From Patescibacteria group bacterium (GTDB lineage Bacteria > Patescibacteriota > Patescibacteriia > UBA10025 > JAHIVO01), in NCBI GenBank assembly GCA_041650915.1, contig JBAZKE010000004.1, positions 36,179 through 100,178 of the forward strand: DNA of 64,000 nucleotides. Direction: 5' to 3'. Position 1 is the first letter of the stretch, and each line of letters opens with the position of its first letter. The notes under the pieces were generated by a model. That model was given only the letters and a program-made list of their open reading frames with translations, searched no databases and was not told the DNA's origin. Below are positions 11,903-60,310 of the stretch, in pieces. Made by a program: the position numbers and the translations under genes.

Positions 11903-12154
11903 TCAGTCGTCGTCGTTAAATGCTTCACGCATGGCTCGCCGGATATTCGGGTCACCCGCATCGTAGGGACTAGATCTGTCGGCTGTGCCGCGTCGTGGTT
12001 TACTCTGCTGCGCATACAGGTCTCGCACCTTGGCTTCCAGATCCGCGACCTTGGCGGTCAGGGCCTCAACTTCACGCTGTAGTTGATCACACCGATTCAT
12101 CGCTCCGCTCCTTAGTTGACCTATCGTTAGGGATAAATCTTCTCGATTACCCAC
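11903..12154 (-). CDS. hypothetical coiled-coil protein
   Basis: 83-aa ORF. Confidence 0.35.
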   Translation of the reverse strand: MGNREDLSLTIGQLRSGAMNRCDQLQREVEALTAKVADLEAKVRDLYAQQSKPRRGTADRSSPYDAGDPNIRRAMREAFNDDD

Positions 12155-37657: not shown

Positions 37658-38015
37658 CTATGGCGGTAAGGCAGGCATTGGTGTTGCCCACCAGCCTGCC
37701 GTTTACCTTTTCTACCACGCCTAAACCTACGCTGTCGAGACTCACGGCCCAATCGGGATGGGCGGGCGGCGCGAAATCGATAAGGCCGTTCGTAGCGATT
37801 CTACACTTAACCACTTCCTTTTTCCAAATGCCCGACCGATTTGGTATGTGAAGGTAGTAATGCCTCCAATAATATTGACCATCAACCAGCTCGGTCAGAC
37901 TCACCGTTACCTTGCGCTCGTCTTCAGTGCTATTAGGCAGATAGCACACAGCGTTACACGGAATCGGAATCATCATGGGCATCATTTCTCCCTGACCTCG
38001 CCGGCTTCGATCCAC
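37614..38015 (-). CDS. hypothetical protein
   Basis: 133-aa ORF. Confidence 0.4.
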   Translation of the reverse strand: MDRSRRGQGEMMPMMIPIPCNAVCYLPNSTEDERKVTVSLTELVDGQYYWRHYYLHIPNRSGIWKKEVVKCRIATNGLIDFAPPAHPDWAVSLDSVGLGVVEKVNGRLVGNTNACLTAIDDLDAAFSDRGGWS

Positions 38016-38036
38016 ACACCCTGCTGGCCCGATTCG
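38005..38036 (-). repeat. degenerate CRISPR repeat (canonical 32-nt I-C type); shares the 13-mer GATCCACACACCC with the mini-array unit at 48530
   Basis: GCTTCGATCCACACACCC versus GTTTTGATCCACACACCC. Confidence 0.45.
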
Positions 38037-38060
38037 TCATTCACGACGGTCCAGATCTGG

Positions 38061-38093
38061 TTTCAATCCACTCACCTTCGTGAAGGTGAGACG
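38061..38093 (-). repeat. solitary hairpin-retaining CRISPR repeat unit
   Basis: GTTTCAATCCACTCACCTTCGTGAAGGTGAGAC: first 12 nt identical to the array repeat; stem TCACCTTC/GAAGGTGA maintained by compensatory changes relative to GCGCCTTC/GAAGGCAC. Confidence 0.6.
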
Positions 38094-40934: not shown

Positions 40935-41729
40935 GTGCATTCCTCCCCGGTTCCCCAGCCCACTGTCGGTCAGCATTGTTTTTACTACCGCGTCGTCGAC
41001 ACAGCAACGGGCAAACCCGCGACATACTTCACGCAAGAACGTCTGGCCATGCTGACGGGTCGGTTGCGCCACGGCGTGGGTCGGGCGTTTGTAGCCGCAG
41101 GCACCAATGACGACTGGGTGCAGAGTTACGTACACGGTCACGGCGTAGATTGGTGTGATCAGCGTCTATCCTACGTAGGATTTCCTGACGTGCAGCGTGG
41201 CGGTGGCGCTTTCGGTCTCCGCGTCGATTGCGCTGCTGTCGTATTGCCGGCCGGAGATGCCAGAGCACTACAGCATCTCCAAGCTGCTGGCCGCCTTGAT
41301 TGCGAAGCCTATGCAGCATCCAATGCTGTCTCGTTCATTCCGACCGAACAACCTGATTTTTGTCGCGTGTTTAACACACCAGCACGCACCTGGACCACAG
41401 TCACACCGGTCGCGCACTTCGGATCTCTCTTCACTGCGGATTGGAAATCTTCGGAATTTCTTACTGGATTGGCTTCCAGCGCGCTGGCACAGATTGATCA
41501 TGATGAGGCAGCGATTGCACGTGTACAGGTCAGGTCGACGCCGTTCTATTCCAGCGTGCTCGACGACATGCTTGGCATTCCGGCCAATCAGTATTTCATT
41601 CCCGTGCACATGCGGGGCAAGTTCTCATTTGCCCACGTGCGAATTGAATTCGACCGCGATGTCACGGGACCTGTACTCATGGGATTGGGACAATTCCGTG
41701 GATTTGGGCTGTTCGCGGGAGGTGTATAA
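40935..41729 (+). CDS. hypothetical protein with C-terminal glycine-rich loop (possible RAMP/Cas5-Cas6-like fold)
   Basis: C-terminus ...VLMGLGQFRGFGLFAGGV resembles the RAMP G-rich loop; no other motif recognised. Confidence 0.3.
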   Translation: MHSSPVPQPTVGQHCFYYRVVDTATGKPATYFTQERLAMLTGRLRHGVGRAFVAAGTNDDWVQSYVHGHGVDWCDQRLSYVGFPDVQRGGGAFGLRVDCAAVVLPAGDARALQHLQAAGRLDCEAYAASNAVSFIPTEQPDFCRVFNTPARTWTTVTPVAHFGSLFTADWKSSEFLTGLASSALAQIDHDEAAIARVQVRSTPFYSSVLDDMLGIPANQYFIPVHMRGKFSFAHVRIEFDRDVTGPVLMGLGQFRGFGLFAGGV

Positions 41730-43348: not shown

Positions 43349-44434
43349 CTACACTGGATATCTGTATTCTTTTTCTTGCCAATTCCTTAGCTTTAATTCA
43401 GTTTCTGTTCTTCCCACCACGTAATCCGGCATCACGGGAATTTTCCCACCGCCTCCGGGCGCATCGACGACAAACGTCGGCACGCCATAGCCGGAAATCC
43501 TACCTCGCAGGTAACGAATAATTTCAGTTCCGACGCTGGGGTCACAGCGGAAATGACTCGTGCCCTCTACGGGGTCGCAGGCGTACAGATAATACGGCCG
43601 GACGCGCATTTTCAGCAGTTTGACCATCAAGAGTCGCATGACCTCGGGGTCGTCGTTGATGTTTTTGAGTAGTACGGTCTGAGATCCCAGGGGGCAGCCG
43701 CAATCTGCTAGCGCATTGCACGCTGCTTCGACCTCGGGCGTGATTTCGGCGGGATGGGTCGCGTGAATCGAAATCCAGGGCCGATATTCTCGAAGCAAAC
43801 CGCGTAAATCAGCGTCTATGCGTTGTGGCAGCACCATGGGAACCTTGGTGCCGATGCGGATCATTTCGACATGCGGAATACGGGAAAGTGACTTTAGTAC
43901 AGTCTCCAGTGTAGAAGTCGTGAGAGTCAGTGGATCTCCACCCGAAACCACGACATCGCGGATTTCTGGGTGATGACGAATATACTCGATGGCCTCTGGA
44001 TTATCCGGGGTATAGCAGTGTTGCCCGACAGACCTAGATCGTGTGCAATATCTGCAGTACGCGGCACAGGAATTAGCGACGAGGAACAACACGCGATCCG
44101 GGTATCTGTGAATTAGTCCAGGGACCGGGGAATCATCATCCTCGCCAAGTGGATCTTGAGCTTCGCCAGGCGAAACGATTAACTCCTGTGTCGATGGGAC
44201 CATTGTTTTATTTAGTGGGTGGTTGGCTCCCAGCCGGGCCAAGAGGTCCGCGTAATACGGTGTGATTCTAGCGGGCAGCTTGACACCATCGGCTGGAAAA
44301 TCAGTAATGGTGTGACGGAGTTGCCAACGCCAGTCGTTCCATTGATTCGAATTTTTAATTTCGTCAGGATAAGGCTGTAGCGTACAGGGCAGGGGGTCGG
44401 GGTCGATTAGTGAGATGTCGGGCGGTTCGGTCAA
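43349..44434 (-). CDS. radical SAM aminomutase, KamA/EpmB (lysine 2,3-aminomutase) family
   Basis: CAAYCRYCTRSR (CxxxCxxC) with upstream HRYPDRVLFLV and downstream VVVSGGDPLTL, typical of the KamA family. Confidence 0.65.
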   Translation of the reverse strand: MTEPPDISLIDPDPLPCTLQPYPDEIKNSNQWNDWRWQLRHTITDFPADGVKLPARITPYYADLLARLGANHPLNKTMVPSTQELIVSPGEAQDPLGEDDDSPVPGLIHRYPDRVLFLVANSCAAYCRYCTRSRSVGQHCYTPDNPEAIEYIRHHPEIRDVVVSGGDPLTLTTSTLETVLKSLSRIPHVEMIRIGTKVPMVLPQRIDADLRGLLREYRPWISIHATHPAEITPEVEAACNALADCGCPLGSQTVLLKNINDDPEVMRLLMVKLLKMRVRPYYLYACDPVEGTSHFRCDPSVGTEIIRYLRGRISGYGVPTFVVDAPGGGGKIPVMPDYVVGRTETELKLRNWQEKEYRYPV

Positions 44435-45960: not shown

Positions 45961-46085
45961 AGTAATCTCCAACGGCCCGTAATTGGGCAGTTGGGTTTTA
46001 CATGTTTTACTTGGATGTGAACACGACGCTGCACGTTAAAAAGGTGGCGACTATCCCTCAGCCTCGATCTCGTGGGCTACGTTCT

Positions 46086-46121
46086 GTTTCAACCTCGCGC
46101 CATCCTCGAAAGGACGGCAAT
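46086..46121 (-). repeat. degenerate terminal CRISPR repeat beyond the array's distal end
   Basis: GTTTCAACCTCGCGCCATCCTCGAAAGGACGGCAAT versus consensus; flanked by a duplicated 19-mer CCGTAATTGGGCAGTTGGG at 45977 and 46134. Confidence 0.45.
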
Positions 46122-46158
46122 ATTCCCAACGATCCGTAATTGGGCAGTTGGGATTTTA

Positions 46159-48240
46159 GTTTCAATCCACGTGCCTTCACAAGGAAGGCACGACCGGTCA
46201 ACCTTAGACCCGCAACCCTGGTGACGGTCCAGTTTCAATCCACGTGCCTTCACAAGGAAGGCACGACCTGCCAATCCCGGAGGTTGCAAAACCGCCATGG
46301 CCATGTTTCAATCCACGTGCCTTCACAAGGAAGGCGCGACCCGGCTTGTCGTCTGGCAAATACCATGTCGTGATGCCATTTCAATCCACGTACCTTCTCG
46401 ACAGAAGGCACGACGAATCAGTGAGACCGATATCACTAATACCTCTGAATTATTTCAATCCACGTACCTTCTCGACAGAAGGCACGACGCGCAAGTCGGG
46501 AGCTTGTTTACCCGGCGTAGGACTTATTTCAATCCACGTACCTTCTCGACAGAAGGTACGACCGGGGTTATTTCGTGACCTTCCTCGCCAGCTGGGATGT
46601 ATTTCAACCCACGCGCCTTCTACCAAGAAGGCACGACCTGGATACAATTATCGAGCGCTGCGCGGATGTCCGTTGGTTTCAATCCACGCGCCTTCTACCA
46701 AGAAGGCACGACGACCCATGGGTCAATCGAGATCACTGAAGCGACCTGGTTTCAATCCACGCGCCTTCTACCAAGAAGGCACGACCGAAAGCCGAAGTTG
46801 CCTTGGCCAAGCAATTCGTGGTTTCAATCCACGCGCCTTCTACCAAGAAGGCACGACCCGCTGGATTTTTCTGGGCCCAACCGGTCCATCCTCGTTTCAA
46901 TCCACGCGCCTTCTACCAAGAAGGCACGACTCAAGCCTCGATACGCAAGGTGGTTCCTGCGGCGCCTCGTTTCAATCCACGCGCCTTCTACCAAGAAGGC
47001 ACGACCGATGCCCTGGGTTGATGGCCTCGATATGGTTAACCAGTTTCAATCCACGCGCCTTCTACCAAGAAGGCACGACCTGACACGGCACGGGCTGCAG
47101 CACGATGCTGACGCCGTTTCAATCCACGCGCCTTCTACCAAGAAGGCACGACATGGGAGTCCAAGTAAATGCAACCCGTCAACCCACCGTTTCAATCCAC
47201 GCGCCTTCACAAGGAAGGCACGACATCCTTACCGGTGCGGTGCGGATACCCTCGGTTGGCGTTTCAATCCACGCGCCTTCACAAGGAAGGCACGATCCTC
47301 GGACAGGCTGTCACGGGTCGAGAGTGAATCGTGGTTTCAATCCACGCGCCTTCACAAGGAAGGCACGACCAACTCGCCTTCGAGCAACGCGAGGCCCACG
47401 TCATTGTTTCAATCCACGCGCCTTCACAAGGAAGGCACGACCTCGACAATGAGTTGCACCCCGATGCGCAGCGCCTCACGTTTCAATCCACGCGCCTTCA
47501 CAAGGAAGGCACGACCCGACATAATGACGGGCCCCATCGGTCGCGATGCTGTTTCAATCCACGCGCCTTCACAAGGAAGGCACGACCAGCCTGGGTATAG
47601 GCGTAGGTAGAGATTCGTTCACCGTTTCAATCCACGCGCCTTCACAAGGAAGGCACGACGCGCATTTGTGAGCTTTTCCATGGCAGTCATCGCGTTTCAA
47701 TCCACGCGCCTTCACAAGGAAGGCACGACTCTGGCGAAACTCCCCATATCCGACCCGTCCATCACGGTTTCAATCCACGCGCCTTCACAAGGAAGGCACG
47801 ACCAATCTGTCGTGACCAAGGCTTCGTTGCTCTGCAGATGTTTCAATCCACGCGCCTTCACAAGGAAGGCACGACCTACCAGAACCGATTTACCTGCCCG
47901 CGTTGGACCCCTGTTTCAATCCACGCGCCTTCACAAGGAAGGCACGACAAACACGTTTGGTCCAGGTCCTGCAATACCCAGGTGTATGTTTCAATCCACG
48001 CGCCTTCACAAGGAAGGCACGACGACCTGGCCGAGGATATCCGGGAGCACGGTCAGGTTGTTTCAATCCACGCGCCTTCACAAGGAAGGCACGACAAGCT
48101 CGTTCTCCTGGACTCGCAGCGCACCTAGTTTGTTTCAATCCACGCGCCTTCACAAGGAAGGCACGACAGCGACCGATTAGAAACCCTTTACTCAGGAGAT
48201 AGATGTTTCAATCCACGCGCCTTCACAAGGAAGGCACGAC
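46159..48240 (-). CRISPR. CRISPR array: 29 repeats (36-37 nt), 28 spacers (35-38 nt), transcribed on the minus strand, leader at the high-coordinate end
   Basis: Plus-strand consensus is GTTTCAATCCACGCGCCTTCACAAGGAAGGCACGAC; on the minus strand it reads GTCGTGCCTTCCTTGTGAAGGCGCGTGGATTGAAAC, ending in the ATTGAAAC handle. Repeat subtypes occur in blocks: repeats 1-3 CGTGCC/ACAAG, 4-6 CGTACC/TCGACA (37 nt), 7-14 CGCGCC/TACCAA (37 nt), 15-29 CGCGCC/ACAAG. Degeneration increases toward 46159. Confidence 0.95.
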
Positions 48241-48262
48241 TGCTCGCTAAAATTCACTAGCA

Positions 48263-48291
48263 ATTCTACGCCGTTGTGCACCGGTTTGCGA
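48263..48291 (-). promoter_or_regulatory. candidate leader promoter TCGCAA-N17-TAGAAT for the main array
   Basis: best sigma70-like match in the roughly 210-bp leader; weak -35. Confidence 0.25.
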
Positions 48292-48450
48292 GCACTGCCA
48301 GATGAATTGGTGTTTTTGACTCTGGGCGCGCTTCTGAGCTTCATTACTGTCGGCCCAAGCCATTGATTTTGTTCTCCTGGTGTTCGCGCGAGCGGGTCCG
48401 GGGTTTTCGACGCCACCGAGCCGCTCGCGAGTTGTTTCAGTACAGCCGCA

Positions 48451-48625
48451 CTGTTTTGATCCACGCGCCTGTCGCGCTCCACGCGTTCGAGGCGCGGCGG
48501 AAGATGATATCATACCTGCATACCGCCTGGGGTTTTGATCCACACACCCGCAAGGGTGCGACGGCTACCAACGAGGCCATGAAACTGCTCGACATGTTTC
48601 AATCCGCGCACCCGTGAAAGGTGCG
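48451..48625 (-). CRISPR. decayed mini-array of canonical 32-nt type I-C repeats (3 units) between cas7 and the main-array leader
   Basis: Unit 3 GTTTCAATCCGCGCACCCGTGAAAGGTGCGAC reads on the minus strand as GTCGCACCTTTCACGGGTGCGCGGATTGAAAC, the classic I-C repeat form. Unit 2 is GTTTTGATCCACACACCCGCAAGGGTGCGAC. Unit 1 is disrupted. One 33-nt spacer-like segment lies between units 2 and 3. Confidence 0.6.
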
Positions 48626-48809
48626 ACTGCCCGGTCTCAACCAAGCAGCAATCATTGGCATTTTCGGCGCAGTTCCGCGAACCCAAGGAACAGAGCGCCG
48701 ACATCGTGTTGTATTCAGTTACCAATGTGCAGACCACCAAGCAATTCAGCAACTTACTGTTCCGCGAACCTCCAGGCTTTTACTGAGCGCTGGAGGTTCG
48801 CGCAACCCC

Positions 48810-49802
48810 CTACTTCGAGTTGATGAGTGCCCATCCGCCAGCCAGCCAGTCGCAGTGCTCGACGTTGGCCGGCAGACCCTCGGTGTTAACCGCCAGGGTG
48901 TAGTCCGTGATTTCCCGGACCGCCGTGACTTCCGGCTTCCGCGTCGCCGTAACTCGCTGCATCAGACTGGACCGCGACGCATTGCCCAGTGGGCTCATGT
49001 GCTTGAACGCGTGGAACGCGTGGAGGCAGCGCACGCCCGACGATGCCGTCATGGAGTCCCAGCAACCTACGAATGCTCGGACGAATAGATCTAGGTCGGC
49101 CTGGGTGAATCCCGTCTTGGCTGCCCATGCCGGCGCCACCGTGCCCTCGATGCGGTACAGCCCGAAAGGTACGATGAATTTTTTGCCCATCGTCCGGTTC
49201 GCTGCGGCGCTGTCCTCCGCAGTTTCGTTCTCCCCGCCTGCTTTGTCCTTGCGATTCGTCGCGCACATCCGCGTGATCGTCATGGGCAGGATCTCAATGG
49301 GGTCCACGGATAGCGCCGTGCAGATTTGCACCGGACCCGTAACTTTGCCCCCGCCCGACTTGCCCTTGGCCTTTTTGCCCTTGGCCTTGCCCTTCTTGCT
49401 TGTAGGCGTACCCGCCTCAGTCTCGGGCGCTTCAGGCTCGTCCTCTTTTGCATCGCCGCCGACCATCACGGCGCCAAACGTGCGTACGTCCCAGAACTTA
49501 CGCAGCAGTGCTTGCTGAAGGGTGTCATTCTCCGGCTTTACCGTTTTCTGAACCTCGGCGTTGACTTCTGCGAGCACAGCGCCATCGGTGTAATAGATAT
49601 TGTTTTCCTGCGTGCCTGTAGCTGCGGCGTAATCCTGCACATAATTGCGAATCTTGCGCTTTACGCAGACATCAGACATGATCCCCCTGCCTGTGGTGTA
49701 GTCAGTTCGGGGTTGGTTATCTGCATCGGGGTCACCGTTGGGATTTCCTCGGGCGACAGAAACAAACGCTACAAAATCATACCGGTTCGCGATCGTGGTC
49801 AT
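48810..49802 (-). CDS. cas7: Cas7 (Csd2, type I-C)
   Basis: N-terminal RYDFVAFVSVARGNPNGDPDADNQPRTDYTTGRGIMSDVCVKRKIRNYV matches the Csd2/DevR signature; AAGGAGA SD. Confidence 0.8.
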   Translation of the reverse strand: MTTIANRYDFVAFVSVARGNPNGDPDADNQPRTDYTTGRGIMSDVCVKRKIRNYVQDYAAATGTQENNIYYTDGAVLAEVNAEVQKTVKPENDTLQQALLRKFWDVRTFGAVMVGGDAKEDEPEAPETEAGTPTSKKGKAKGKKAKGKSGGGKVTGPVQICTALSVDPIEILPMTITRMCATNRKDKAGGENETAEDSAAANRTMGKKFIVPFGLYRIEGTVAPAWAAKTGFTQADLDLFVRAFVGCWDSMTASSGVRCLHAFHAFKHMSPLGNASRSSLMQRVTATRKPEVTAVREITDYTLAVNTEGLPANVEHCDWLAGGWALINSK

Positions 49803-49803
49803 T

Positions 49804-49983
49804 TCGTTCTCCTTTATTTCACTAGGCCAAGGGTTGCGCGCAGCGCGGTGGTTTCCAGGTGCTCCTGCTGCGCAATTTGCCGCACCGTTTGGGTGGCGTC
49901 TTGGGTCGTTAGCATCAGGACGGCCAGCGGCGATAGTTTGATTACTACTTGAGCGCTACAACGGTTGTTACTTTTGCTCCACA
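49804..49983 (-). CDS. small ORF (about 57 aa) in the 190-nt cas8c-cas7 gap
   Basis: ATG..TAA ORF below the track cutoff; function unknown. Confidence 0.2.
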
Positions 49984-49990
49984 TCGGTGT

Positions 49991-51835
49991 TTACTCCTCT
50001 GCGTCTGCCTCCTTTTTGGTTTGCATTCGCGACGCAATGTTAGCGTTGAATTGCTGGCGTTGGTGCTCGACGCCGAGAATGAAGTTTTCGCGTGCAGTTA
50101 GATCTGCATGCAGCGGCAGCGCATTATCCCGCGTAATTTCCGCGTTCACCTCCGTCAAAATCTCAAGATAGTGGTCAACCAAGTGCCCCGAGTTCTGGTG
50201 CGCTTCCCGCTGTACGTGACCATTGATTTCTGTTACTAGCTTCACCCATGCGTTGCGCTGTGCAGTGGCTGCCTGCTGGAAAGCGTTGGCCAGCCAGGCG
50301 CTGCGACGCAGTTCGGCCTGCACGACGTTCATCCCAGTTTTACCTCGGTACTGGCAGTACTTTACTTGTTCCAGTATAGCGAACGCTCTCCCCCACAGAT
50401 AGGATGGGTTTTTATTCTCTAGCTCCAGCATGCTCGATACCTCCTGTGCATCAGTTCGGTTTCTGCCGAGTTTGACCAATTTAGCCAATAGGCTGAAACG
50501 CGTGTTTCCTGCTCTCCGGTCGTTGCGCACGTAAATCATTGATGCAGCCAAAGTCGCTGCGTTACGCATACCCACGGGCAATGGAAGTCCTTGGAGCGCG
50601 CAATTCCAAAGGCTCTCTTTGTACCTAGCCATCTGGGCATCGATCTTGGTTCGGTCCACTTTACGTCGGTCGGCCATAGCACGCGTAAGCTCGTACACTG
50701 TGGGCAGCCAGGTCATTTTGCCGTCACCCATGGCGAGGTCATTTCGGTATTTTCGCACGTTACCGATGACTTCTGCGACAGTGCTCGTGTATTGTTTGAC
50801 CATGGCGCGCTTCATATTGGCCGATAGACTCACCAGGAAAAATGGCGAATAGTTTTTGGTGTCTAGATCCGTGTGCTGTGCTGCGTTGGTCAGGTCATGG
50901 CGAAGTTCTTTGCCCCGCACATGATCTAGCTGGCTGTAGTCCTCCGGAGTTGCCTCGGTTTCTTCTTCCGCATTTTCAAGCTCTAGCTGCTGAATAGTGG
51001 TTTGTACCCTGCGTAGGGTTTCCAAATCGCCATCGAGCCAATAGTACATCCGGCTCGTGTCTAGCGAAATGAAGAAACGATTCTCTGCTAGATACGCGAA
51101 CGTTGCTCGGTATTGCGCAATACCCTCAGGCGACATCGGCGCTGCGGCCCCGCGGGCTCCACCATAGCGGAGCAAGTGAGGTAAGTTATACGACACCAGG
51201 GATGCAGACGCCAGTTTGCCGTCAGCTCCTGGCATCACAACGGAGTCGTGTAACTCCTGCGGAGCATCCGTGAACTCCCCCGTGAGAACGCAGCGTACGG
51301 CTTGCTTACACTCAGGCCGGTTAGCCACGCGCCAGGCATCGAAGTAAGGCACAAGCTCCGCTTGCTCGTGCACATACTGTCCGTCGACGATAAATGCAAT
51401 CATGGGTGCGATTTTCCAAGCCAACGCACCCTCTTGCTCCAGCCGAGGGCGCTGTTGTTCCCAGCCGGCATAAAACTTGGCTACAGCTTGGGCACCGACG
51501 TTATTAGAGGCTTCGGCGAAGTAGTTTACCAAATCTACGAACAGACCGAAACACTCGGCAGCACGGTCTTTTTTATCTTCTTTTTCCCACAAACCCAACA
51601 CGTATGTAGCGTTGTCGCAGAAAGGGTTTGCTCGAGCGTTGCGTGTGCGCGGCCCGGGCAGTTTGGGCACTTGCGTGAAGGGGCGTTCGTCACCTTTTAG
51701 CGCGTAGGTTTCGGTGCGTAGTAGATTGCCTCCAGCGTCAAGGACCAAGGCATACCCCAGCGACATAGTTTCGTATCCGGGTCTATTTCCTAGTCCGCGC
51801 TGTACGGCGAATTTAGTGGCTGCGCGTAGGAACAT
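49991..51835 (-). CDS. cas8c: Cas8c (Csd1, type I-C large subunit)
   Basis: 614 aa; N-terminal ...GNRPGYETMSLGYALVLDAGGNLL... resembles Csd1; position between cas5 and cas7; start overlaps cas5 stop (TAATG). Confidence 0.65.
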   Translation of the reverse strand: MFLRAATKFAVQRGLGNRPGYETMSLGYALVLDAGGNLLRTETYALKGDERPFTQVPKLPGPRTRNARANPFCDNATYVLGLWEKEDKKDRAAECFGLFVDLVNYFAEASNNVGAQAVAKFYAGWEQQRPRLEQEGALAWKIAPMIAFIVDGQYVHEQAELVPYFDAWRVANRPECKQAVRCVLTGEFTDAPQELHDSVVMPGADGKLASASLVSYNLPHLLRYGGARGAAAPMSPEGIAQYRATFAYLAENRFFISLDTSRMYYWLDGDLETLRRVQTTIQQLELENAEEETEATPEDYSQLDHVRGKELRHDLTNAAQHTDLDTKNYSPFFLVSLSANMKRAMVKQYTSTVAEVIGNVRKYRNDLAMGDGKMTWLPTVYELTRAMADRRKVDRTKIDAQMARYKESLWNCALQGLPLPVGMRNAATLAASMIYVRNDRRAGNTRFSLLAKLVKLGRNRTDAQEVSSMLELENKNPSYLWGRAFAILEQVKYCQYRGKTGMNVVQAELRRSAWLANAFQQAATAQRNAWVKLVTEINGHVQREAHQNSGHLVDHYLEILTEVNAEITRDNALPLHADLTARENFILGVEHQRQQFNANIASRMQTKKEADAEE

Positions 51836-52506
51836 TATTGCACCGTTCCATAGTGGGTGGCGATAGCGGCTTCGCGCGGTGGAATGTTCAGGACTCCATT
51901 CTCCATGATGGCGTTGTAATACAGCGACACTTTTGGGGACACTTCGTAGTGAAAGTCGTAAAACATGTACCCGAGATCTACTGAAACTGGTAACGCCGTT
52001 TCGCTTTCGAAGTCTGCCGGGGCAACATCTGCGGGGAACTCGCGTCTCCCAAAATAGGGTGCGTGGTGGTATTGTCCGAGGTCTAGACGTCGTGTCAGCA
52101 TGGCCTCGTACTTGGTGAGATTGGCGTCTTCTGTCGGTTTAACAGTTAGGTGCATGACGAATTCTACTAGATAAGCGACGTCACGCAAAATTAGCTGGGC
52201 CATTTGTGTACGAGCTTGCGTAACATCAATTGTAGGTTTATCTTTCGTTGCGGCTTCTTTGATTCCATTGGTGCGAAATCGTACTAGCCTGATGGGTTTT
52301 AGTACTTTGAGCCTGAGCGGCTGGATCCGTACCTCTGGATGCCAAAATACACTCTCGAGCATACCACGAAGCGCGGAAGGCGTAGGCACCTCATAAGATA
52401 CACCTTCGATGCGGAACTCAGGTCGGACGAAGTTTGCGAAGTTGCCTGAAAATTTCACACAAAATGGTTTGCCGGTTTGGCCCACGAAAAAGGGTTTGCC
52501 TGTCAT
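51835..52506 (-). CDS. cas5: Cas5d (type I-C Cas5, pre-crRNA endonuclease)
   Basis: FANFVRPEFRIEGVSYEVPTPSALRGMLESVFWHPE matches the Cas5d N-terminal signature; 223 aa. Confidence 0.75.
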   Translation of the reverse strand: MTGKPFFVGQTGKPFCVKFSGNFANFVRPEFRIEGVSYEVPTPSALRGMLESVFWHPEVRIQPLRLKVLKPIRLVRFRTNGIKEAATKDKPTIDVTQARTQMAQLILRDVAYLVEFVMHLTVKPTEDANLTKYEAMLTRRLDLGQYHHAPYFGRREFPADVAPADFESETALPVSVDLGYMFYDFHYEVSPKVSLYYNAIMENGVLNIPPREAAIATHYGTVQ

Positions 52507-52636
52507 GCTGCGGTTCTCCTGCTGGTTCAGAACGGCGTTTTCTGCCGTGCATGTTCCCCACTGTAGCGGGATTCAGTGCTGCTGTCTAGGAAAATCGTCG
52601 CCGGGGCCTAAATTTTTTGAGGTGGGTGCAGGCGGG

Positions 52637-55006
52637 TTAGACGATAAGAGGCTGAAGTTGCAGGGATTGCTCGTTTAACTGGCGTACTTGTACACCATAC
52701 CGCGGGTCATACTGAAGCGCGGTAGGGTTCACCAGGAGCAGCGTCGCAGTGTCGACTTTCTTGACCTCGCCCTTGGTATCGTCACCCGCATCGTCTGCAA
52801 AGATCTCATCGTCCAGATTGAGCATGCGGATTAAACCGGCGTCCAGCCATTTGGCCAGACAAGTTTTTGCGATGTTTACGGTGTAGGTCCGCAGTGTACG
52901 ATAAGCTGCCCACGGGCGGTTCCCGCGCTCAATGTTTCTAACGGCTTCAGCACAGATTTCATCTTGAACTATGACGACTGGCGCCGACCAATCGCTCTCG
53001 ATCATCCTGAATTTTTCGCTCACAGTCTGAAAATTAAGTTTTCTACGCTCGGCTTGAATTTCGTCGCCCTGGGCAAGCTTTCGTGTTACGCGCCTATACC
53101 ATTTTTCCCAGTACTCTCGCTGCACCTGGGGATTAAATATATCGAAATCTTCTCCTCTGTTTCGTCGGTTCGTCCGCATTTCCCAAACTGTGGTGATGGC
53201 GGCTTCCAAGCCGTAGTCCATGATATTTTTCGTAGGCGACGCATATAATTTAAGCCTAGCCGCAGCCAAGCGTCCTTCACGGTTCACGCGCCCGGCGAAC
53301 TGAATGATGGAGTCCAGGCCGGCGATCGGTGCAAAACCAAGTGGAAAATCGAAATCGATTCCGGCTTCCACCAGACTCGTTGTTACAAGATGAATTAGTT
53401 TTTTATTTCTAAGTTTGTTCCGTACGTCTGCAATGACCCTAGACCGGTCCATAGGAGTCAGTAGAGCCGACAGTGCTATGATCTCTGCCCCTGTCCTTCG
53501 CGCGTCCAATTCTTCACACAGCGCCTGCACGTCGTCGCGCAACACTACTTTTGTAATGCTAGACACAGTTGAGGCTGTGATTTCGTTCACTAGTTCTGGC
53601 CAAGTGGTGGGCACAAATTCATCTGGCCACTCAACCGCCACACGCGGCGGTATCGTTATTTCGCCAGGTGCAACGATTTGATTTATTGACTTGAATCCGT
53701 ATGCGGTTTTAAGCACAACATTTCCGGGTCCGCGCATGCGGTTCATGACGGCGCGCACACGCTCCTGCCCTTCGAAATCCCATACTGGCACTGTAGCCGT
53801 AGAAATCAATAACGACACACCAAAGTGTTTCACCAGCGTATCCAAAATGTTAAGTACAGGAAATAGCACGTGTGCTGGAATCGTTTGCGCCTCGTCAATG
53901 AACACTACTGTGTTAGCGATGTTGTGGTTTTTACGGCTTTTGCGCACCTTACGCGCCAGTAAAGACTCGAAAAATTGAACCGTAGTCGACACGAGTATCG
54001 GGGCAGCCCAATTGTTAGTAATGAGCATGTCTCTGAATGTAAAGCGCCGGTCACTGCTGTTTTTCTCTGGATCGTACCCAGAATGATGCTCAATGACGTT
54101 ATTTGGTCCAACTGCCCCGCTAATTGCTGCAACCGTTTGCTCGATCAGTGCCTCGAACGGCTGCAAGATGATTATTTTGGATTTGTTGTATTTGATCGCA
54201 TGCAGAATAGCCCATTCAAGGCCCGAAAGTGTTTTGCCAAGCCCCGTTGGTACGTTCAGATAGTGAATTCCAGGAGGAAGCAAGGCAGCCACTCTGCATC
54301 TTTCTCGAACTAGAGCACGTTGTGTGTTTATAAAGGAAGGCTGTGCAGCGTTTTGCAACGCGTCGATCGTGTTTTCTAGTCTTTGACTGATAACAGGTAA
54401 AGAATCGAAGCCTGCTGCGCGCAGCCGCTCGCGTCCAGGCGTTTCTGCATTTTCGGCATCCAGAGCGTCTGCATCGCAAAGGGAAGAAAACAGCATGCGG
54501 AAGAATAGCTCGACAGTATAGATGTCTTTGCGCTGCTCTTGGCTTAATTGCTCCAGAGCGGGAAGTGTTTTAAGCTGCGCGTCCAGCCAAAGAAAACGAT
54601 CGGCTATTGGAATGTTTCTCAGCTCGTCGAGTTCTACCCTGCCCCAATCGATCGATCGGTTCCCTTCGGCATTCATATCCCGCATACCCGAATGGTGGTG
54701 CAGAACGGAGAACCAAACGGCAACGTGTTCTGGTCCTTGCTTGATGATCTGGGCCGCAATTTGTTTAAGATAATGGGCTGCGCTTTCCTTCGCGTGATAC
54801 GTGGTCATTGGGGCTTGCCCGAGTAGATATTGCTGCCAGGGGAGTACGCGCTTCTCGACGTCATGTACCAGGCCAGCCAGTAGGCCCAGATTGCCCAGCC
54901 CAAACGCCGTACAGTATTCTGAGCAGCGTCGGGCCACGCCCGCCAAGTGGTCGACTAAAAGTTGCTGGGCTCCAGCTTCCGAAACTCGGGCAAGCGGCTC
55001 AGTCAT
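52637..55006 (-). CDS. cas3: Cas3 (HD nuclease plus SF2 helicase)
   Basis: N-terminal HD-like LVHDVEK; DEAQ box (VVFIDEAQTIP); 789 aa; first gene of the operon. Confidence 0.75.
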   Translation of the reverse strand: MTEPLARVSEAGAQQLLVDHLAGVARRCSEYCTAFGLGNLGLLAGLVHDVEKRVLPWQQYLLGQAPMTTYHAKESAAHYLKQIAAQIIKQGPEHVAVWFSVLHHHSGMRDMNAEGNRSIDWGRVELDELRNIPIADRFLWLDAQLKTLPALEQLSQEQRKDIYTVELFFRMLFSSLCDADALDAENAETPGRERLRAAGFDSLPVISQRLENTIDALQNAAQPSFINTQRALVRERCRVAALLPPGIHYLNVPTGLGKTLSGLEWAILHAIKYNKSKIIILQPFEALIEQTVAAISGAVGPNNVIEHHSGYDPEKNSSDRRFTFRDMLITNNWAAPILVSTTVQFFESLLARKVRKSRKNHNIANTVVFIDEAQTIPAHVLFPVLNILDTLVKHFGVSLLISTATVPVWDFEGQERVRAVMNRMRGPGNVVLKTAYGFKSINQIVAPGEITIPPRVAVEWPDEFVPTTWPELVNEITASTVSSITKVVLRDDVQALCEELDARRTGAEIIALSALLTPMDRSRVIADVRNKLRNKKLIHLVTTSLVEAGIDFDFPLGFAPIAGLDSIIQFAGRVNREGRLAAARLKLYASPTKNIMDYGLEAAITTVWEMRTNRRNRGEDFDIFNPQVQREYWEKWYRRVTRKLAQGDEIQAERRKLNFQTVSEKFRMIESDWSAPVVIVQDEICAEAVRNIERGNRPWAAYRTLRTYTVNIAKTCLAKWLDAGLIRMLNLDDEIFADDAGDDTKGEVKKVDTATLLLVNPTALQYDPRYGVQVRQLNEQSLQLQPLIV

Positions 55007-55012
55007 GTAGAG

Positions 55013-55040
55013 AAAATAGCAGAAATGACGAGATTGTCAA
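55013..55040 (-). promoter_or_regulatory. cas operon promoter TTGACA-N16-TATTTT ending 6 nt before the cas3 ATG
   Basis: the -35 lies within the palindrome GTCAAGT-N8-ACTTGAC, which also supplies the -35 of the divergent plus-strand promoter. Confidence 0.45.
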
Positions 55041-55137: not shown

Positions 55138-55176
55138 CGTCGTCGCCATGGCTCTGGCTTTAATGACGTGTGGGTT
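55138..55176 (+). repeat. possible degenerate CRISPR-repeat-like element in crRNA orientation
   Basis: CGTCGTCGCC...GACGTGTGGGTTGAAAC versus GTCGTGCC...GCGCGTGGATTGAAAC; about one 10/11 match to the handle is expected by chance in this window, so this is weak. Confidence 0.2.
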
Positions 55177-55200
55177 GAAACTACTCCGCACAACTGACAT

Positions 55201-58588: not shown

Positions 58589-60310
58589 TTACTTCTCCTT
58601 TTTTGCTAGTGTGGCATCCCGGAACTTCCGGAACATTTTCGTGAGGAACCGAGTTCCACGGGCTTGCTCTTGAACCCGGATTCTCTTGATTTTATCCATC
58701 ACTTTGCGATTCAGTTCCCCAGTTTCGTCGTCAAACGGCTCCAAACCGGTGTCGACCTCCTCGATGTGCTTGAGCACCTGCATTTCATCATCCCGACAGT
58801 AGCTGTACGGCGCGATTTTATGGTCAACCGCGTCGATGTACATGGACCTGAGTCCCTCACGAACGTCGTAGTGCAGGAACGAAACGCCAGCGCCGTTGAG
58901 TGCTGTTTGCCACTCTGCCGCCATGGGCGTATCGACCGAAACGCGCCACTCGTACCCTCGGTCCTGGAGGTCCCGTGTCTCCTGGAGCCACCAAGAATAG
59001 TCAATCGGAGCCTTTTTCTTACCGCGCCCCTTGGCCTTATACGCCAGGAGTGTCGTGGGCAGGTGGTATGCCGCGGCCTTCTCCAGAATCGTTCGGAAGT
59101 CCTCCTGGGTTACCGTGCCCATGACGATGTGGATCGACACCGCGGGGCAGTCGGGATTGTACTGAACTCCACCGTCCTCGGGATCGATTCGGAATGCCAG
59201 GGCGCCACTACCACGGTCACCCTGCTTCACGACAGTATTCTGGTGCTGAATTTCTTTAACAAAAGCATCGACGTCTTCGGGTGTTCGGACCGTATAGGCA
59301 AAGCCACCGCAGTTTCTCCGGACAGAAGCCAAGATCTCAGGGTCATCGAGCCACTTCAGTGTGCCCGTGGAGAAGTTCGGGATGATGTCGTGGTCTCGCA
59401 TGATCCGGATGATGTACTGGAACTTCGGGTGTTCTGTGGGCTCCCCGCCACCGATTGCAACCTCCAACACGCCGCAGTCATGCATCTGGTGAATGAGGCG
59501 CTGTAGCTCCTGGTAATCCGCGTGCCGCCCCTTGGCTGTGGATTTCTGGTAGCACCAGGCACAACCGCGGGTACAATAATTTGTGATCTTGAGATCCACC
59601 AACTCGGGAAATCCCGATGCAGCTGTACCTCGGTACAGCGCCGCGTTCGGATATCGATATTTCTCGTCGCTCAGGGCTTCGTCCTGGAACTGCTGAAACG
59701 ACAGCCGAGTTTTCTCGCCGGTGTACTGGTTGAACAGGAGCCACTGGTCGAACTCTTCGTCGTGCCGAGCGACTAGACACCTGGGCTTTTTGTCGTAATC
59801 CCCGCCGTCATAGTCAACGGTCCTGTCACTGGGCAGACAAAGGTTCACGCTGGGGCCTGCTGAAGCCTGGGGGTGTGGGCCATCACTGTTATCGTTTCCG
59901 CCCAGCACCACGACGTCTTGCGTGAGCATCATGTCGAGATAGGCTTTGTAGAACTCGACGTCGAGAGTGTCCTTGCCGTAAGCCCGGGGGAAGTTCAGGA
60001 CACTCTGGTGATCGATATCCTGGGCGTCCTGAGGAATAACATCGCTGGTGAAATACGCGACGATGGCGTTGAGGTAGTCCTCGGGAACGCGGCCGAGCAT
60101 TAGGGCAAGGTTTGACCGGAATTGCAGGGCGAAGTACAGGCGTTTGGCCTGGGTCGACGCCGCAATCCAGTTGCCCCAGCCGAAATCGCTGGACGCGGGG
60201 CCGCCATCCCAAACATCTTGGTTTTGGAGATTTTTGCCTGGGGCAAATACAACAGAATGGGAAGAAGAGGAATTCGTCGCGAACCCGAGCCGATGTTTGA
60301 GAACACGCAT
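58589..60310 (-). CDS. radical SAM protein with roughly 230-aa N-terminal domain of unknown function
   Basis: LKITNYCTRGCAWCYQ (CxxxCxxC) and AIGGGEPT glycine-rich SAM motif. Confidence 0.6.
   Translation of the reverse strand: MRVLKHRLGFATNSSSSHSVVFAPGKNLQNQDVWDGGPASSDFGWGNWIAASTQAKRLYFALQFRSNLALMLGRVPEDYLNAIVAYFTSDVIPQDAQDIDHQSVLNFPRAYGKDTLDVEFYKAYLDMMLTQDVVVLGGNDNSDGPHPQASAGPSVNLCLPSDRTVDYDGGDYDKKPRCLVARHDEEFDQWLLFNQYTGEKTRLSFQQFQDEALSDEKYRYPNAALYRGTAASGFPELVDLKITNYCTRGCAWCYQKSTAKGRHADYQELQRLIHQMHDCGVLEVAIGGGEPTEHPKFQYIIRIMRDHDIIPNFSTGTLKWLDDPEILASVRRNCGGFAYTVRTPEDVDAFVKEIQHQNTVVKQGDRGSGALAFRIDPEDGGVQYNPDCPAVSIHIVMGTVTQEDFRTILEKAAAYHLPTTLLAYKAKGRGKKKAPIDYSWWLQETRDLQDRGYEWRVSVDTPMAAEWQTALNGAGVSFLHYDVREGLRSMYIDAVDHKIAPYSYCRDDEMQVLKHIEEVDTGLEPFDDETGELNRKVMDKIKRIRVQEQARGTRFLTKMFRKFRDATLAKKEK

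What the first reader, a model, noticed from the sequence alone, without database searches (positions are those of the whole stretch)
46159..55040. Compact type I-C CRISPR-Cas (cas3-cas5-cas8c-cas7 plus arrays) lacking cas1, cas2 and cas4, in a phage-like context
The sequence shows interference genes in canonical I-C order on the minus strand with overlapping stops and starts. Next comes a decayed 32-nt-repeat mini-array, then a roughly 210-bp leader and a 29-repeat array. No adaptation genes lie anywhere between cas7 (48810) and the array, nor beyond its distal end. The surrounding genes are phage-like: an endolysin, dozens of small ORFs, and possible counter-defence genes. Interference-only type I-C-like systems have been reported in large phage genomes. 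Under that model they are used against competing mobile elements or to manipulate the host, and they rely on host Cas1-Cas2 or static arrays.
Basis: partly seen in the sequence, partly recalled or inferred. Interest (0 to 1): 0.8.

Follow-up and report, generated by a model that had tools for sequence, protein, structure and literature searches.

The report
Adaptation-less type I-C CRISPR on phage-like contig
A probable large-phage (or other mobile-element) contig carries a complete DNA-cutting type I-C CRISPR module and a 28-spacer array but no spacer-acquisition genes. This arrangement is already known from huge phages, so it is a new member of a known kind with a few unusual extras.

Summary
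cas3, cas5c, cas8c and cas7 lie on the minus strand (48810-55006). They are followed by a decayed mini-array of 32-nt repeats, a 212-nt gap, and an array of 29 repeats and 28 unique spacers (48240-46159). One correction: the main repeats are 36-37 nt, not 32 nt. They occur in four block-wise variants, and all keep a 9-10-bp hairpin plus the canonical I-C 11-nt tail UGGAUUGAAAC.

No cas1, cas2 or cas4 was found in the window or in 94 kb of the 101.7-kb source contig. That stretch has no tRNA, rRNA or housekeeping genes. It is rich in ORFans and carries phage-type genes, but no capsid or terminase gene was seen. NCBI files the contig under a Patescibacteria MAG.

About 11 distinct IMG/VR viral loci show the same adaptation-less layout. 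In five of them an array of about 36-37-nt repeats starts some 200-250 bp after cas7.

New here:
- a stand-alone Cas6-fold protein (40935-41729) related to the C-terminal half of type I-G Csb2;
- a second mini-array at 38.0 kb;
- a repeat relic upstream of cas3.

No spacer target was found.

Verdict: a new member of a known kind, of moderate interest.

The parts
52637..55006 (-). cas3: fused HD nuclease and SF2 helicase, 789 aa
   Evidence: Family hits: TIGR01596 cas3_HD 1.1e-12, TIGR01587 core 3.2e-23, PF22590 and PF00270. Best PDB matches are 8zns_A (deposited as CRISPR-associated endonuclease Cas3-HD, 1.6e-56) and N. lactamica I-C Cas3 8g9u_P (6.9e-56). Motifs H20, H47-D48 and H103-105, Walker A GLGKT at 255 and motif II DEAQ at 371 are present. 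The 8zns homologue has the same DEAQ.
51835..52506 (-). cas5c (Cas5d), the expected pre-crRNA endonuclease and 5'-handle binder
   Evidence: TIGR01876 at 120.6 bits (cutoff 85) and PF09704 5.4e-23. Best PDB match is N. lactamica I-C Cas5 8g9t_N, 7.8e-34, over nearly the full length.
49991..51835 (-). cas8c/Csd1, the large subunit
   Evidence: PF09709 7.9e-62. TIGR01863 scores 172 bits, below its cutoff of 218.65, so the protein is divergent. PDB match to D. vulgaris Cas8c 8dej_I, 8.6e-16, covers residues 22-503 only.
49991..50431 (-). possible internal cas11c reading frame (146 aa from M469 of cas8c)
   Evidence: This is inference only. An in-frame ATG at codon 469 follows AGGAGG at a spacing of 8 nt, and a second candidate at M502 follows GAGG. 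Internal translation of Cas11 from cas8c is established for canonical I-C systems (my own knowledge, not tested here).
49814..49984 (-). 56-aa ORF between cas8c and cas7, function unknown
   Evidence: No family hit. The ENA pipeline calls it as a gene. It is absent from the closest relative L006, where cas7 starts 4 nt after cas8c.
48810..49802 (-). cas7/Csd2, the backbone subunit, with a 31-aa Lys-rich insertion
   Evidence: TIGR02589 at 212 bits (cutoff 182) and PF05107 1.5e-69. PDB match 8g9s_B, 1.6e-52. The insertion shows up against the two closest homologues. Nearest relatives are only 57% and 48% identical, and all others are 41% or less.
48628..48809 (-). conserved region after cas7 (hairpin plus leader-like sequence)
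   Evidence: Significantly similar to the 160 nt after cas7 in relative L006: local score 62 against a shuffle mean of 15.4, z = 21.
48453..48627 (-). mini-array 1, with decayed canonical-length repeats
   Evidence: Composition: a 32-nt repeat GTCGCACCTTTCACGGGTGCGCGGATTGAAAC, a 33-nt spacer, a 31-nt repeat with a CAAAAC tail, 56 nt, and a 23-nt repeat stump. The repeats fold into 7-bp hairpins.
48241..48452 (-). 212-nt stretch in front of the main array (presumed leader)
   Evidence: Assigned by position only. No sigma-70-like site was found on this strand. It has no significant similarity to the post-cas7 region or to L006.
46159..48240 (-). main CRISPR array: 29 repeats of 36-37 nt and 28 unique spacers of 34-39 nt
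   Evidence: Four repeat variants lie in blocks of 15, 8, 3 and 3 from the leader end. All fold as a 9-10-bp stem followed by the 11-nt tail UGGAUUGAAAC or its variant (z = -3.9 to -4.7). The ENA copy of the contig lacks spacer 25.
46086..46117 (-). degenerate terminal repeat beyond the last intact repeat
   Evidence: CCGTCCTTTCGAGGATGGCGCGAGGTTGAAAC.
45969..46156 (.). 31-nt direct repeat pair (45969-45999 and 46126-46156) bracketing the terminal degenerate repeat
   Evidence: 90% identical copies (family D5). Meaning unknown.
40935..41729 (+). stand-alone Cas6-fold RAMP protein (264 aa) related to the C-terminal Cas6 domain of type I-G Csb2
38003..38092 (-). mini-array 2: a 33-nt repeat, a 38-nt spacer and a degenerate half-repeat
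   Evidence: GTCTCACCTTCACGAAGGTGAGTGGATTGAAAC, then 38 nt, then GGGTGTGTGGATCGAAGCC.
55139..55181 (+). degenerate repeat-like relic on the opposite strand, upstream of cas3
   Evidence...ACGTGTGGGTTGAAAC, 3 mismatches to the repeat's 3' 16-mer. This could be a chance match or a remnant of a second, inverted array such as the one seen in L030/L031.

Best explanation
This is a mobile-element-borne type I-C-like CRISPR-Cas system that has interference genes only. The element is most likely a large phage.

Proposed mechanism:
1. The array is transcribed in the same direction as the cas genes.
2. Cas5c cuts each repeat at the base of its 9-10-bp hairpin. That leaves crRNAs with the canonical 11-nt 5' handle UGGAUUGAAAC.
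3. Cas5c, Cas8c, about seven Cas7 subunits and probably an internally translated Cas11c assemble into Cascade.
4. When Cascade binds a matching DNA next to a PAM, it recruits the HD-helicase Cas3, which degrades the target.

The likely targets are competing phages or plasmids, or host loci.

The element has no Cas1, Cas2 or Cas4. Its spacer content must therefore change by recombination between arrays, or by borrowing a host adaptation complex in trans.

Shown here: gene identities, intact motifs, the array, the conserved handle and the absence of adaptation genes in 94 kb.

Inferred: which enzyme processes the repeats, the targets, how spacers are gained, and the viral nature of the replicon.
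For: All four interference proteins match I-C families and solved I-C structures. The Cas3 HD and helicase motifs are intact.

Fifteen identical leader-proximal repeats and 28 unique spacers argue for a maintained array. Every repeat variant keeps the hairpin and the 11-nt I-C tail.

No Cas1, Cas2 or Cas4 was found by Pfam on 93 ORFs, by the precomputed Pfam calls over contig positions 7703-101657, or by tblastn.

The context is MGE-like:
- no tRNA and no Rfam hit;
- only 17 Pfam families among 93 ORFs;
- PHROG hits to ribonucleotide reductase (RNR), dNMP phosphatase, RNase H, endolysin and Hsp20;
- an HNH endonuclease whose best hits are 485-735-kb uncultured phages, and a phage-type HslV.

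The layout recurs elsewhere. Of 32 IMG/VR loci with an I-C-like Cas7, 15 (about 11 distinct) lack cas4, cas1 and cas2 within 10 kb. In five distinct loci an array starts about 200-250 bp after cas7: L028/29, L030/31 and L038/39 have 36-37-nt repeats, and for L037 the repeat length was not resolved. Several of these contigs carry coat, portal or fibre genes.

The block-wise repeat variants differ by multi-base loop replacements. One assembly also lacks a spacer-repeat unit. Both fit turnover by recombination.

Literature precedent: Al-Shayeb 2020 (PMC7162821) and the review PMC11656645, which also cites type IV-A acquiring spacers through a host I-E module.
Against: No phage structural or packaging gene was detected in 94 kb. 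NCBI assigns the contig to a Patescibacteria MAG.

No protospacer was found, so the targets and the PAM are unknown. The searches covered:
- the whole array against INPHARED phages and PLSDB plasmids;
- spacers 1 and 2 and two mini-array spacers against IMG/VR;
- spacer 1 against JGI metagenomes;
- all spacers against the contig itself.

No array with this repeat was found in GTDB genomes, IMG/VR or JGI metagenomes. There is therefore no candidate host donor of adaptation.

The catalytic residues of Cas5c could not be verified from sequence. About 7.7 kb of the ENA contig and the rest of the replicon were not seen.
Confidence: 0.72

Rival explanations
1. Hybrid crRNA biogenesis. The 36-37-nt repeats with about 36-nt spacers have a geometry typical of type I-G arrays. 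In this reading they are cut by the stand-alone Csb2-type Cas6 encoded 4.4 kb beyond the array. The array may have been captured from, or be extended by, a host adaptation module that is not I-C. The resulting crRNAs then load the phage's I-C Cascade.
For: The 264-aa protein is a confident Cas6-fold homologue of the Csb2 C-terminal domain and keeps the family-invariant His.

Shangguan 2022 (PMC9638904) reports 36-nt repeats and 72-nt crRNAs for type I-G. It also shows that the isolated C-terminal domain cleaves repeats.

Only the decayed mini-arrays here have the canonical 32-33-nt length.
Against: Other adaptation-less viral loci have 36-37-nt repeats but no detectable relative of this Cas6. 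The long repeats therefore do not require it.

The two nearest stand-alone homologues sit on contigs with no cas genes or arrays nearby.

The gene is on the opposite strand, and four unrelated ORFs separate it from the array. The repeat tail is the exact I-C 11-nt handle.
Confidence: 0.13
2. The replicon is not a virus. It is a large plasmid or another extrachromosomal element, or an island in a bacterial (Patescibacteria) chromosome that lost its adaptation genes by local deletion.
For: There is no capsid, portal, terminase or tail hit in 94 kb. The contig is filed under a Patescibacteria MAG at NCBI. It carries DnaB-like and UvrD helicases and an IS607 resolvase. Amidase_2 with PG_binding_1 also occurs in cellular autolysins.
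Against: There are no tRNA, rRNA or housekeeping genes in 94 kb. About 80% of the ORFs have no Pfam family. The genes are tightly packed and co-oriented. Accessory genes of phage type are present, with best hits in huge phages. A local deletion does not explain why the Cas7 clade is only 57% or less identical to anything else and groups with other adaptation-less viral lineages.
Confidence: 0.18
3. The locus is a decaying, non-functional relic.
For: There are two decayed mini-arrays, a degenerate terminal repeat and a repeat relic upstream of cas3. No targets were found.
Against: All four cas ORFs are intact and keep their conserved motifs. Fifteen consecutive repeats are identical, and all repeat variants preserve pairing in the stem. 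The closest relative, L006, keeps the same four genes.
Confidence: 0.07

Closest known systems
Adaptation-less CRISPR-Cas systems of huge phages, including the 'type I-C variant' (Al-Shayeb et al. 2020, PMC7162821)
   Same: The system sits on a large phage-like element, lacks Cas1, Cas2 and Cas4, uses a Cas5d-type Cas5 with no Cas6 in the operon, and has an array next to the effector genes. The same layout appears in about 11 distinct IMG/VR loci examined here.
   Different: The published I-C variant has an unrelated helicase in place of Cas3. This locus has a bona fide HD-helicase Cas3 of I-C type. Its Cas7 is at most 39% identical to any IMG/VR relative.
Canonical type I-C (Dvulg) systems, e.g. 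D. vulgaris and N. lactamica Cascade/Cas3 (PDB 7kha, 8dej, 8g9s-8g9u)
   Same: The order cas3-cas5-cas8c-cas7 is the same. All four proteins hit these structures best. The repeat has a hairpin followed by the 11-nt tail UGGAUUGAAAC.
   Different: There is no cas4-cas1-cas2. Repeats are 36-37 nt rather than 32 nt and spacers 34-39 nt rather than about 33-35 nt; compare the canonical loci L008, L013, L015, L020, L024 and L035. Cas8c scores below the NCBIfam equivalog cutoff. Cas7 has a 31-aa insertion.
Type I-G Csb2 (Cas5-Cas6 fusion; Shangguan et al. 2022, PMC9638904)
   Same: The 264-aa protein is homologous to the Csb2 C-terminal Cas6 domain. According to that paper, this domain alone binds and cleaves 36-nt repeats.
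   Different: It has no Cas5-like N-terminal half. No Cas7g, Cas8g or Cas3g is encoded nearby. The His of the GRH motif in the G-rich loop is replaced (GQF), although that position varies across the family.
Viral mini-arrays and single repeat units (Racr RNA anti-CRISPRs, PMC10651486; reviewed in PMC11656645)
   Same: Mini-array 2 at 38.0 kb is an isolated repeat-spacer-stump unit away from the cas genes.
   Different: The element here encodes its own Cascade. No host array with matching repeats was found, so neither a decoy role nor exploitation of the host could be tested.
Plasmid type IV-A3 systems that acquire spacers through a host I-E adaptation module (bioRxiv 10.1101/2023.06.23.546257; PMC11656645)
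   Same: Both are MGE-borne effector-plus-array systems without an adaptation module. This is a precedent for acquiring spacers in trans.
   Different: The effector type is different (DinG, no Cas3 nuclease). In-trans acquisition is only hypothesised here.

Membership tests
Type I-C CRISPR-Cas | Cas3 with an HD nuclease fused to an SF2 helicase | tested here: met
   TIGR01596 at 48.3 bits (cutoff 43.45), PF22590 and PF00270. The motifs are present. PDB match to I-C Cas3 8g9u_P, 6.9e-56.
Type I-C CRISPR-Cas | Signature large subunit Cas8c/Csd1 | tested here: met
   PF09709 7.9e-62 over the full length. It is divergent: TIGR01863 scores 172 bits against a cutoff of 218.65. PDB match 8dej_I, 8.6e-16.
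Type I-C CRISPR-Cas | Cas5c (Cas5d) present and no cas6 in the operon | tested here: met
   TIGR01876 at 120.6 bits (cutoff 85). There is no Cas6 gene between cas3 and the array. A Cas6-fold gene does exist 7 kb from cas7, outside the operon.
Type I-C CRISPR-Cas | Cas5c endonuclease activity on the repeat | not testable with these tools
   The published catalytic residues vary among active homologues. The alignment to active N. lactamica and D. vulgaris Cas5c covers the full length, but activity cannot be read from it.
Type I-C CRISPR-Cas | Cas7/Csd2 backbone subunit | tested here: met
   TIGR02589 at 212 bits (cutoff 182). PDB match 8g9s_B, 1.6e-52.
Type I-C CRISPR-Cas | Adaptation module cas4-cas1-cas2 downstream of cas7 | tested here: not met
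   Absent from 94 kb. Canonical IMG/VR loci have it in the 2.2-kb gap between cas7 and the array.
Type I-C CRISPR-Cas | Repeat of about 32 nt with a hairpin and an 11-nt 3' tail ...GGATTGAAAC | tested here: inconclusive
   The tail and the hairpin architecture are met. The length is not: 36-37 nt in the main array, and 31-33 nt only in the two decayed mini-arrays.
Type I-C CRISPR-Cas | Cas11 made by internal translation of cas8c | tested here: inconclusive
   In-frame ATGs at codon 469 (preceded by AGGAGG) and codon 502 (preceded by GAGG) are compatible with this. No expression data are available.
Virus-encoded adaptation-less CRISPR-Cas (huge-phage type) | Encoded on a phage genome | tested here: inconclusive
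   Phage-type accessory genes and high ORFan density are present. No virion or packaging gene was seen in 94 kb, and NCBI labels the contig as a Patescibacteria MAG.
Virus-encoded adaptation-less CRISPR-Cas (huge-phage type) | Effector genes and an array present; Cas1, Cas2 and Cas4 absent | tested here: met
Type I-G Csb2 / Cas6 family (for ORF 40935-41729) | Sequence and fold of the Cas6-like C-terminal domain | tested here: met
Type I-G Csb2 / Cas6 family (for ORF 40935-41729) | N-terminal Cas5-like domain fused to the Cas6 domain | tested here: not met
   The protein is 264 aa and aligns only to residues of about 255-495 in the 480-500-aa homologues.
CreR/CreTA-type regulatory mini-arrays | Pseudo-spacer partly complementary, next to a PAM, to a promoter in the same locus | tested here: not met
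   No TTC-flanked seed match of any mini-array spacer was found in the window.
CRISPR-associated transposon (I-C CAST) | Tn7-like tnsABC/tniQ genes and loss of Cas3 | tested here: not met
   Cas3 is present and intact. No Tn7 family appeared among the Pfam hits.

The most novel reading that the evidence does not exclude
A phage combines a type I-C Cascade/Cas3 with a stand-alone Cas6 derived from type I-G Csb2, and with arrays whose repeat and spacer lengths match a non-I-C adaptation machinery. In this reading the array is extended in trans by the host's 36-37-nt-repeat Cas1-Cas2 and processed by the viral Cas6 (or by both Cas6 and Cas5c). That would make it a cross-subtype chimeric system. 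Alternatively, the viral Cas6 is a protein decoy that sequesters host pre-crRNA. If the Patescibacteria binning reflects the true host, this would also be a CRISPR-armed phage of an episymbiotic CPR (candidate phyla radiation) bacterium.
Probability: 0.12. Interest if true: 0.7.

Novelty: new member of a known kind. Interest (0 to 1): 0.42.

Why it matters
This adds a well-delimited, apparently intact example to the growing set of CRISPR systems carried by mobile elements that can cut DNA but cannot acquire spacers. Unlike the published huge-phage I-C variant, it has a genuine Cas3.

The comparison made here suggests a regularity that could be tested. Among the loci examined, the adaptation-less I-C-like Cas7 lineages on viral contigs are the deep branches. 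In five of the roughly eleven distinct loci the array starts right after cas7, and three of those five have 36-37-nt repeats that keep the I-C 5' handle.

Two features bear on how such arrays change without Cas1-Cas2: the block-mosaic array and the spacer-unit difference between assemblies.

The stand-alone Csb2-type Cas6 is annotated as hypothetical at NCBI and has no counterpart in the BFVD viral structure library. It is a concrete candidate for a viral crRNA-processing or anti-CRISPR protein.

The compact four-gene Cascade-Cas3 set could also interest developers of long-range deletion tools.

Tried and rejected
- **Spacer targets.** I searched the whole array by blastn against INPHARED phages and PLSDB plasmids. 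Spacers 1 and 2 and both mini-array spacers went against IMG/VR with every sixth base wild. Spacer 1 went against JGI metagenomes, and all spacers went against the window and every fetched locus. No credible hit turned up, so no PAM could be derived.
- **Host or relative arrays with the same repeat.** The repeat pattern found nothing in IMG/VR, GTDB genomes or JGI metagenomes.
- **Self-regulatory (CreR/CreTA-like) role of the mini-arrays.** No PAM-flanked partial match exists in the window, so I rejected this.
- **Duplicated leader.** I considered that the 212-nt stretch before the main array is a second copy of the post-cas7 leader. The similarity is not significant (z = 1.0-1.5), so I rejected it. 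Only the post-cas7 region is conserved with L006 (z = 21).
- **Walking the contig with a 100-aa fragment.** This found nothing and cost one homologue search. Walking through exact-sequence cluster look-ups worked instead.
- **Homologues of the Cas6-like protein through the word-indexed search.** It found only itself. The exhaustive HMMER search was needed.
- **Structural evidence for phage identity.** A single-sequence AF2 model of ORF 1703-2578 was unusable (pLDDT 31). PDB sequence searches with ORFs 1703-2578 and 12127-13671 gave nothing. tblastn of 14 concatenated ORFans against phages hit only three accessory genes.
- **The PADLOC 'Csx1' hit.** One of the 93 ORFs hit this model at 3e-20.
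- **Cas5c catalytic residues.** The published triad is not conserved among active homologues, so I drew no conclusion.

Full report
**Observation**

The minus strand of the window carries four cas genes:
- cas3 at 52637-55006;
- cas5c at 51835-52506;
- cas8c/Csd1 at 49991-51835, whose start overlaps the cas5c stop;
- cas7/Csd2 at 48810-49802.

A 56-aa ORF of unknown function (49814-49984) lies between cas8c and cas7.

Pfam and NCBIfam assign all four proteins to type I-C families. Cas5c and Cas7 score above the curated equivalog cutoffs. Cas8c scores above the Pfam cutoff but below the NCBIfam one. The Cas3 HD domain scores above its cutoff. Their best matches among solved structures are the I-C Cascade and Cas3 of N. 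lactamica and D. vulgaris.

Cas3 keeps the HD motifs, Walker A (GLGKT) and motif II (DEAQ), and a solved Cas3-HD homologue (8zns_A) has the same DEAQ. An in-frame ATG at cas8c codon 469 preceded by AGGAGG is compatible with the internally translated Cas11 known for I-C systems. That point is inference.

**Arrays**

Reading the minus strand after cas7, the order is:
- a 182-nt region (48809-48628);
- a decayed mini-array (48627-48453), made of a 32-nt repeat, a 33-nt spacer, a 31-nt repeat, 56 nt and a 23-nt repeat stump;
- 212 nt (48452-48241);
- the main array (48240-46159), with 29 repeats and 28 spacers.

They fall into four variants arranged in blocks:
- 15 copies of GTCGTGCCTTCCTTGTGAAGGCGCGTGGATTGAAAC, of which one starts with A instead of G;
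- 8 copies with the loop TTGGTA;
- 3 copies with the loop TGTCGA and an AAAT end;
- 3 copies with a single G-to-A change.

All variants fold into a 9-10-bp stem followed by an unpaired 11-nt tail, UGGAUUGAAAC or its variant. This is the canonical I-C 5' handle. The changes in the stem preserve or improve pairing.

Spacers are 34-39 nt, all unique, with 57% GC.

Further repeat-like units are:
- a degenerate terminal repeat at 46117-46086;
- a second, isolated mini-array at 38092-38003, made of a 33-nt repeat, a 38-nt spacer and a half-repeat;
- a weak relic on the plus strand upstream of cas3, at 55139-55181.

**Absence of adaptation genes, and the replicon**

The window matches an ENA contig of 101,657 bp (ERZ27247363, k141_1703148). 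Logan contigs from SRR8542065 and an NCBI/JGI copy of 107,933 bp also carry it. NCBI files that copy under a 'Patescibacteria group bacterium' MAG, with locus tags WC505_ and Cas7 as MFA5135341.1.

The ENA copy lacks one spacer-repeat unit, spacer 25.

By walking along the contig I read positions 7703-101657. Three tests found no adaptation gene there:
- The precomputed Pfam calls list no Cas1, Cas2 or Cas4.
- A Pfam scan of 93 ORFs found none.
- tblastn with Cas4, Cas1 and Cas2 from canonical loci gave nothing better than E = 0.06.

The same 94 kb has no tRNA, no Rfam hit and no housekeeping gene. Only 17 Pfam families were hit among the 93 ORFs. Those hits are typical of large phages:
- class II ribonucleotide reductase (RNR);
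- dNMP phosphatase;
- RNase H-like exonuclease;
- Hsp20;
- NADAR;
- R2K ATP-grasp;
- an amidase endolysin;
- radical-SAM enzymes;
- TnpB.

Upstream of the window lie DEAD, DnaB-like and UvrD helicases and a flap endonuclease (FEN). There is also an HNH endonuclease whose best tblastn hits are 485-735-kb uncultured phage genomes, and a phage-type HslV peptidase.

No capsid, portal, terminase or tail gene was recognised, however. The viral assignment is therefore probable, not proven, and the replicon is likely larger than the contig. There is no close DNA match in cultured phages or plasmids.

**Relatives**

The Cas7 has only two close relatives among 5.8 billion proteins, at 57% and 48% identity. 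All others are at 41% or less. The 57% relative sits on a 7-kb contig with the same cas3-cas5-cas8c-cas7 order, an adjacent Hsp20 gene, and a conserved sequence after cas7 (z = 21). That contig ends where an array would begin.

IMG/VR holds 32 loci with an I-C-like Cas7, and they split into two groups.
- Seventeen have cas4-cas1-cas2 directly after cas7. In every one of these where an array was captured, a gap of about 2.2-2.4 kb precedes it and the period is 65-67 nt. The five distinct full-length repeat consensuses are 31-33 nt.
- Fifteen (about 11 distinct) have no cas4, cas1 or cas2 within 10 kb. In five distinct loci of this group an array starts about 200-250 bp after cas7, on contigs of 55-527 kb. 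Three of the five have 36-37-nt repeats (period about 66-75 nt). For the fourth the repeat length was not resolved (period about 67 nt). L022/23 have only a 3-repeat mini-array 68 nt after cas7.

A Pfam survey of six of the adaptation-less loci found Cas7, Cas5d, Cas3 and Csd1. No Cas1, Cas2, Cas4 or Cas6 family was listed. Phage coat, portal and fibre genes lie nearby.

In a rough NJ tree the query clade falls among these deep, long-branch viral lineages, outside the canonical crown. The tree is indicative only. [quoted passage not shown] See also the review PMC11656645.

**A stand-alone Cas6**

ORF 40935-41729 (plus strand, 264 aa) is annotated as hypothetical at NCBI. It matches the C-terminal half of type I-G Csb2:
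- Pfam PF09609 scores above its cutoff;
- PADLOC Cas56g gives 2.5e-16;
- NCBIfam TIGR02165 scores 42.9 bits against a cutoff of 45.

An exhaustive HMMER search found 164 relatives. The two nearest are also stand-alone proteins. Many of the others, the full-length proteins of about 480-500 aa, align through residues of about 255-495.

The alignment keeps the family-invariant residues, including H234 and the G-rich loop. The variable 'GRH' position reads GQF here.

Shangguan 2022 shows that the isolated Csb2 C-terminal domain cleaves 36-nt repeats, and that type I-G crRNAs are 72 nt. The main array here has a matching period of 70-75 nt.

Several facts argue against an obligatory link between this protein and the array:
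- Other adaptation-less loci with long repeats lack any relative of it.
- Its nearest homologues have no cas neighbours.
- It lies 4.4 kb from the array, on the other strand.

I therefore treat Cas5c as the default processing enzyme and the Cas6 as an open lead.

**Mechanism and rivals**

The best explanation (confidence 0.72) is an interference-competent I-C-like system on a mobile element, most likely a large phage. It would be used against competing elements or the host. Its spacer content would change by recombination or by host adaptation in trans.

The block mosaic of repeat variants differs by multi-base loop replacements. Stepwise copying of the leader-proximal repeat would not produce these. 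Together with the unit deletion between assemblies, this favours recombination.

The rivals are:
- hybrid processing by the Cas6 (0.13);
- a non-viral replicon or a chromosomal island (0.18);
- a decaying relic (0.07).

**What failed**

No protospacer was found in any collection searched, and no array with this repeat turned up elsewhere. No self-target or regulatory partial match was found.

The targets, the PAM, the host and the source of spacers therefore remain unknown.

**Verdict**

The finding is real and correctly interpreted. It is a new and rather divergent member of a known kind, with three additions worth following up: the stand-alone Csb2-type Cas6, the long-repeat signature seen in several adaptation-less viral I-C lineages, and the mosaic array.

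Noticed in passing
window 4000-5640 (+) and 15736-17376 (+): Two paralogous 546-aa ORFs are 86% identical at the DNA level over about 1.75 kb. Their GC3 is 0.33-0.34, against roughly 0.6 for most neighbouring ORFs. A RuvC segment matches Cas12f/Cas14b models (E = 1e-8 to 1e-10). NCBI names one of them 'TnpB-related'. No array lies next to either, so they are probably IS605-type TnpB copies of foreign origin.
   Followed up: partly
window 30472-31596 (-); L004 142-720: A third TnpB (374 aa, with the Cas12f1-like TNB domain) is present. An IS607-type serine recombinase sits at the end of the contig.
   Followed up: no
one of the 93 ORFs of alignment A1 (window plus flanks): One ORF hits the PADLOC model 'Csx1 - found elsewhere' at E = 3e-20. 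Twenty ORFs were excluded.
   Followed up: partly
window 43349-44434 (-) and 58589-60310 (-): A KamA-family (lysine-2,3-aminomutase-like) radical-SAM gene and a 573-aa radical-SAM gene flank the CRISPR locus. A further SPASM radical-SAM gene lies upstream on the contig. One ORF among the 93 scanned gives weak viperin-like (pVip) PADLOC hits, but which ORF it is was not identified.
   Followed up: no
window 34611-36590 (-): A 659-aa ORF contains about five tandem repeats of roughly 65 aa ('MFKVGDVLKLT...YEVDHEY'). A related single-repeat ORF follows at 36590-37243. Neither has a family assignment.
   Followed up: no
window 46415-46488, compared with L001: The ENA assembly of the same element lacks exactly one spacer-repeat unit (spacer 25) that is present in the window. 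This is either population heterogeneity or an assembly collapse within the 3-repeat block.
   Followed up: yes
window 45969-45999 and 46126-46156: A 31-nt direct repeat (90% identical) with an internal 6-bp palindrome brackets the degenerate terminal repeat. One copy lies just upstream of the 491-aa ORF that follows the array. Its meaning is unknown.
   Followed up: no
L040 2437-3084 and window 6945-7418: The contig that carries the nearest stand-alone Cas6 homologue also encodes a homologue (37% identity, E = 5e-25) of the winged-helix ORF next to the window's endolysin. The two elements therefore appear related, although L040 has no cas genes in its 5.7 kb.
   Followed up: partly
L030/L031 (IMG/VR contigs of 111-118 kb): These adaptation-less I-C-like loci carry arrays on both sides of the cas genes, in opposite orientations, with cas3 divergent from cas5. 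This may explain the repeat relic upstream of cas3 in the window.
   Followed up: no
L028 8-1555 (-): A WGR-PARP_reg-PARP (poly-ADP-ribose polymerase-like) protein is encoded about 3.4 kb upstream of cas3 in the adaptation-less I-C locus of a 126-kb IMG/VR contig.
   Followed up: no
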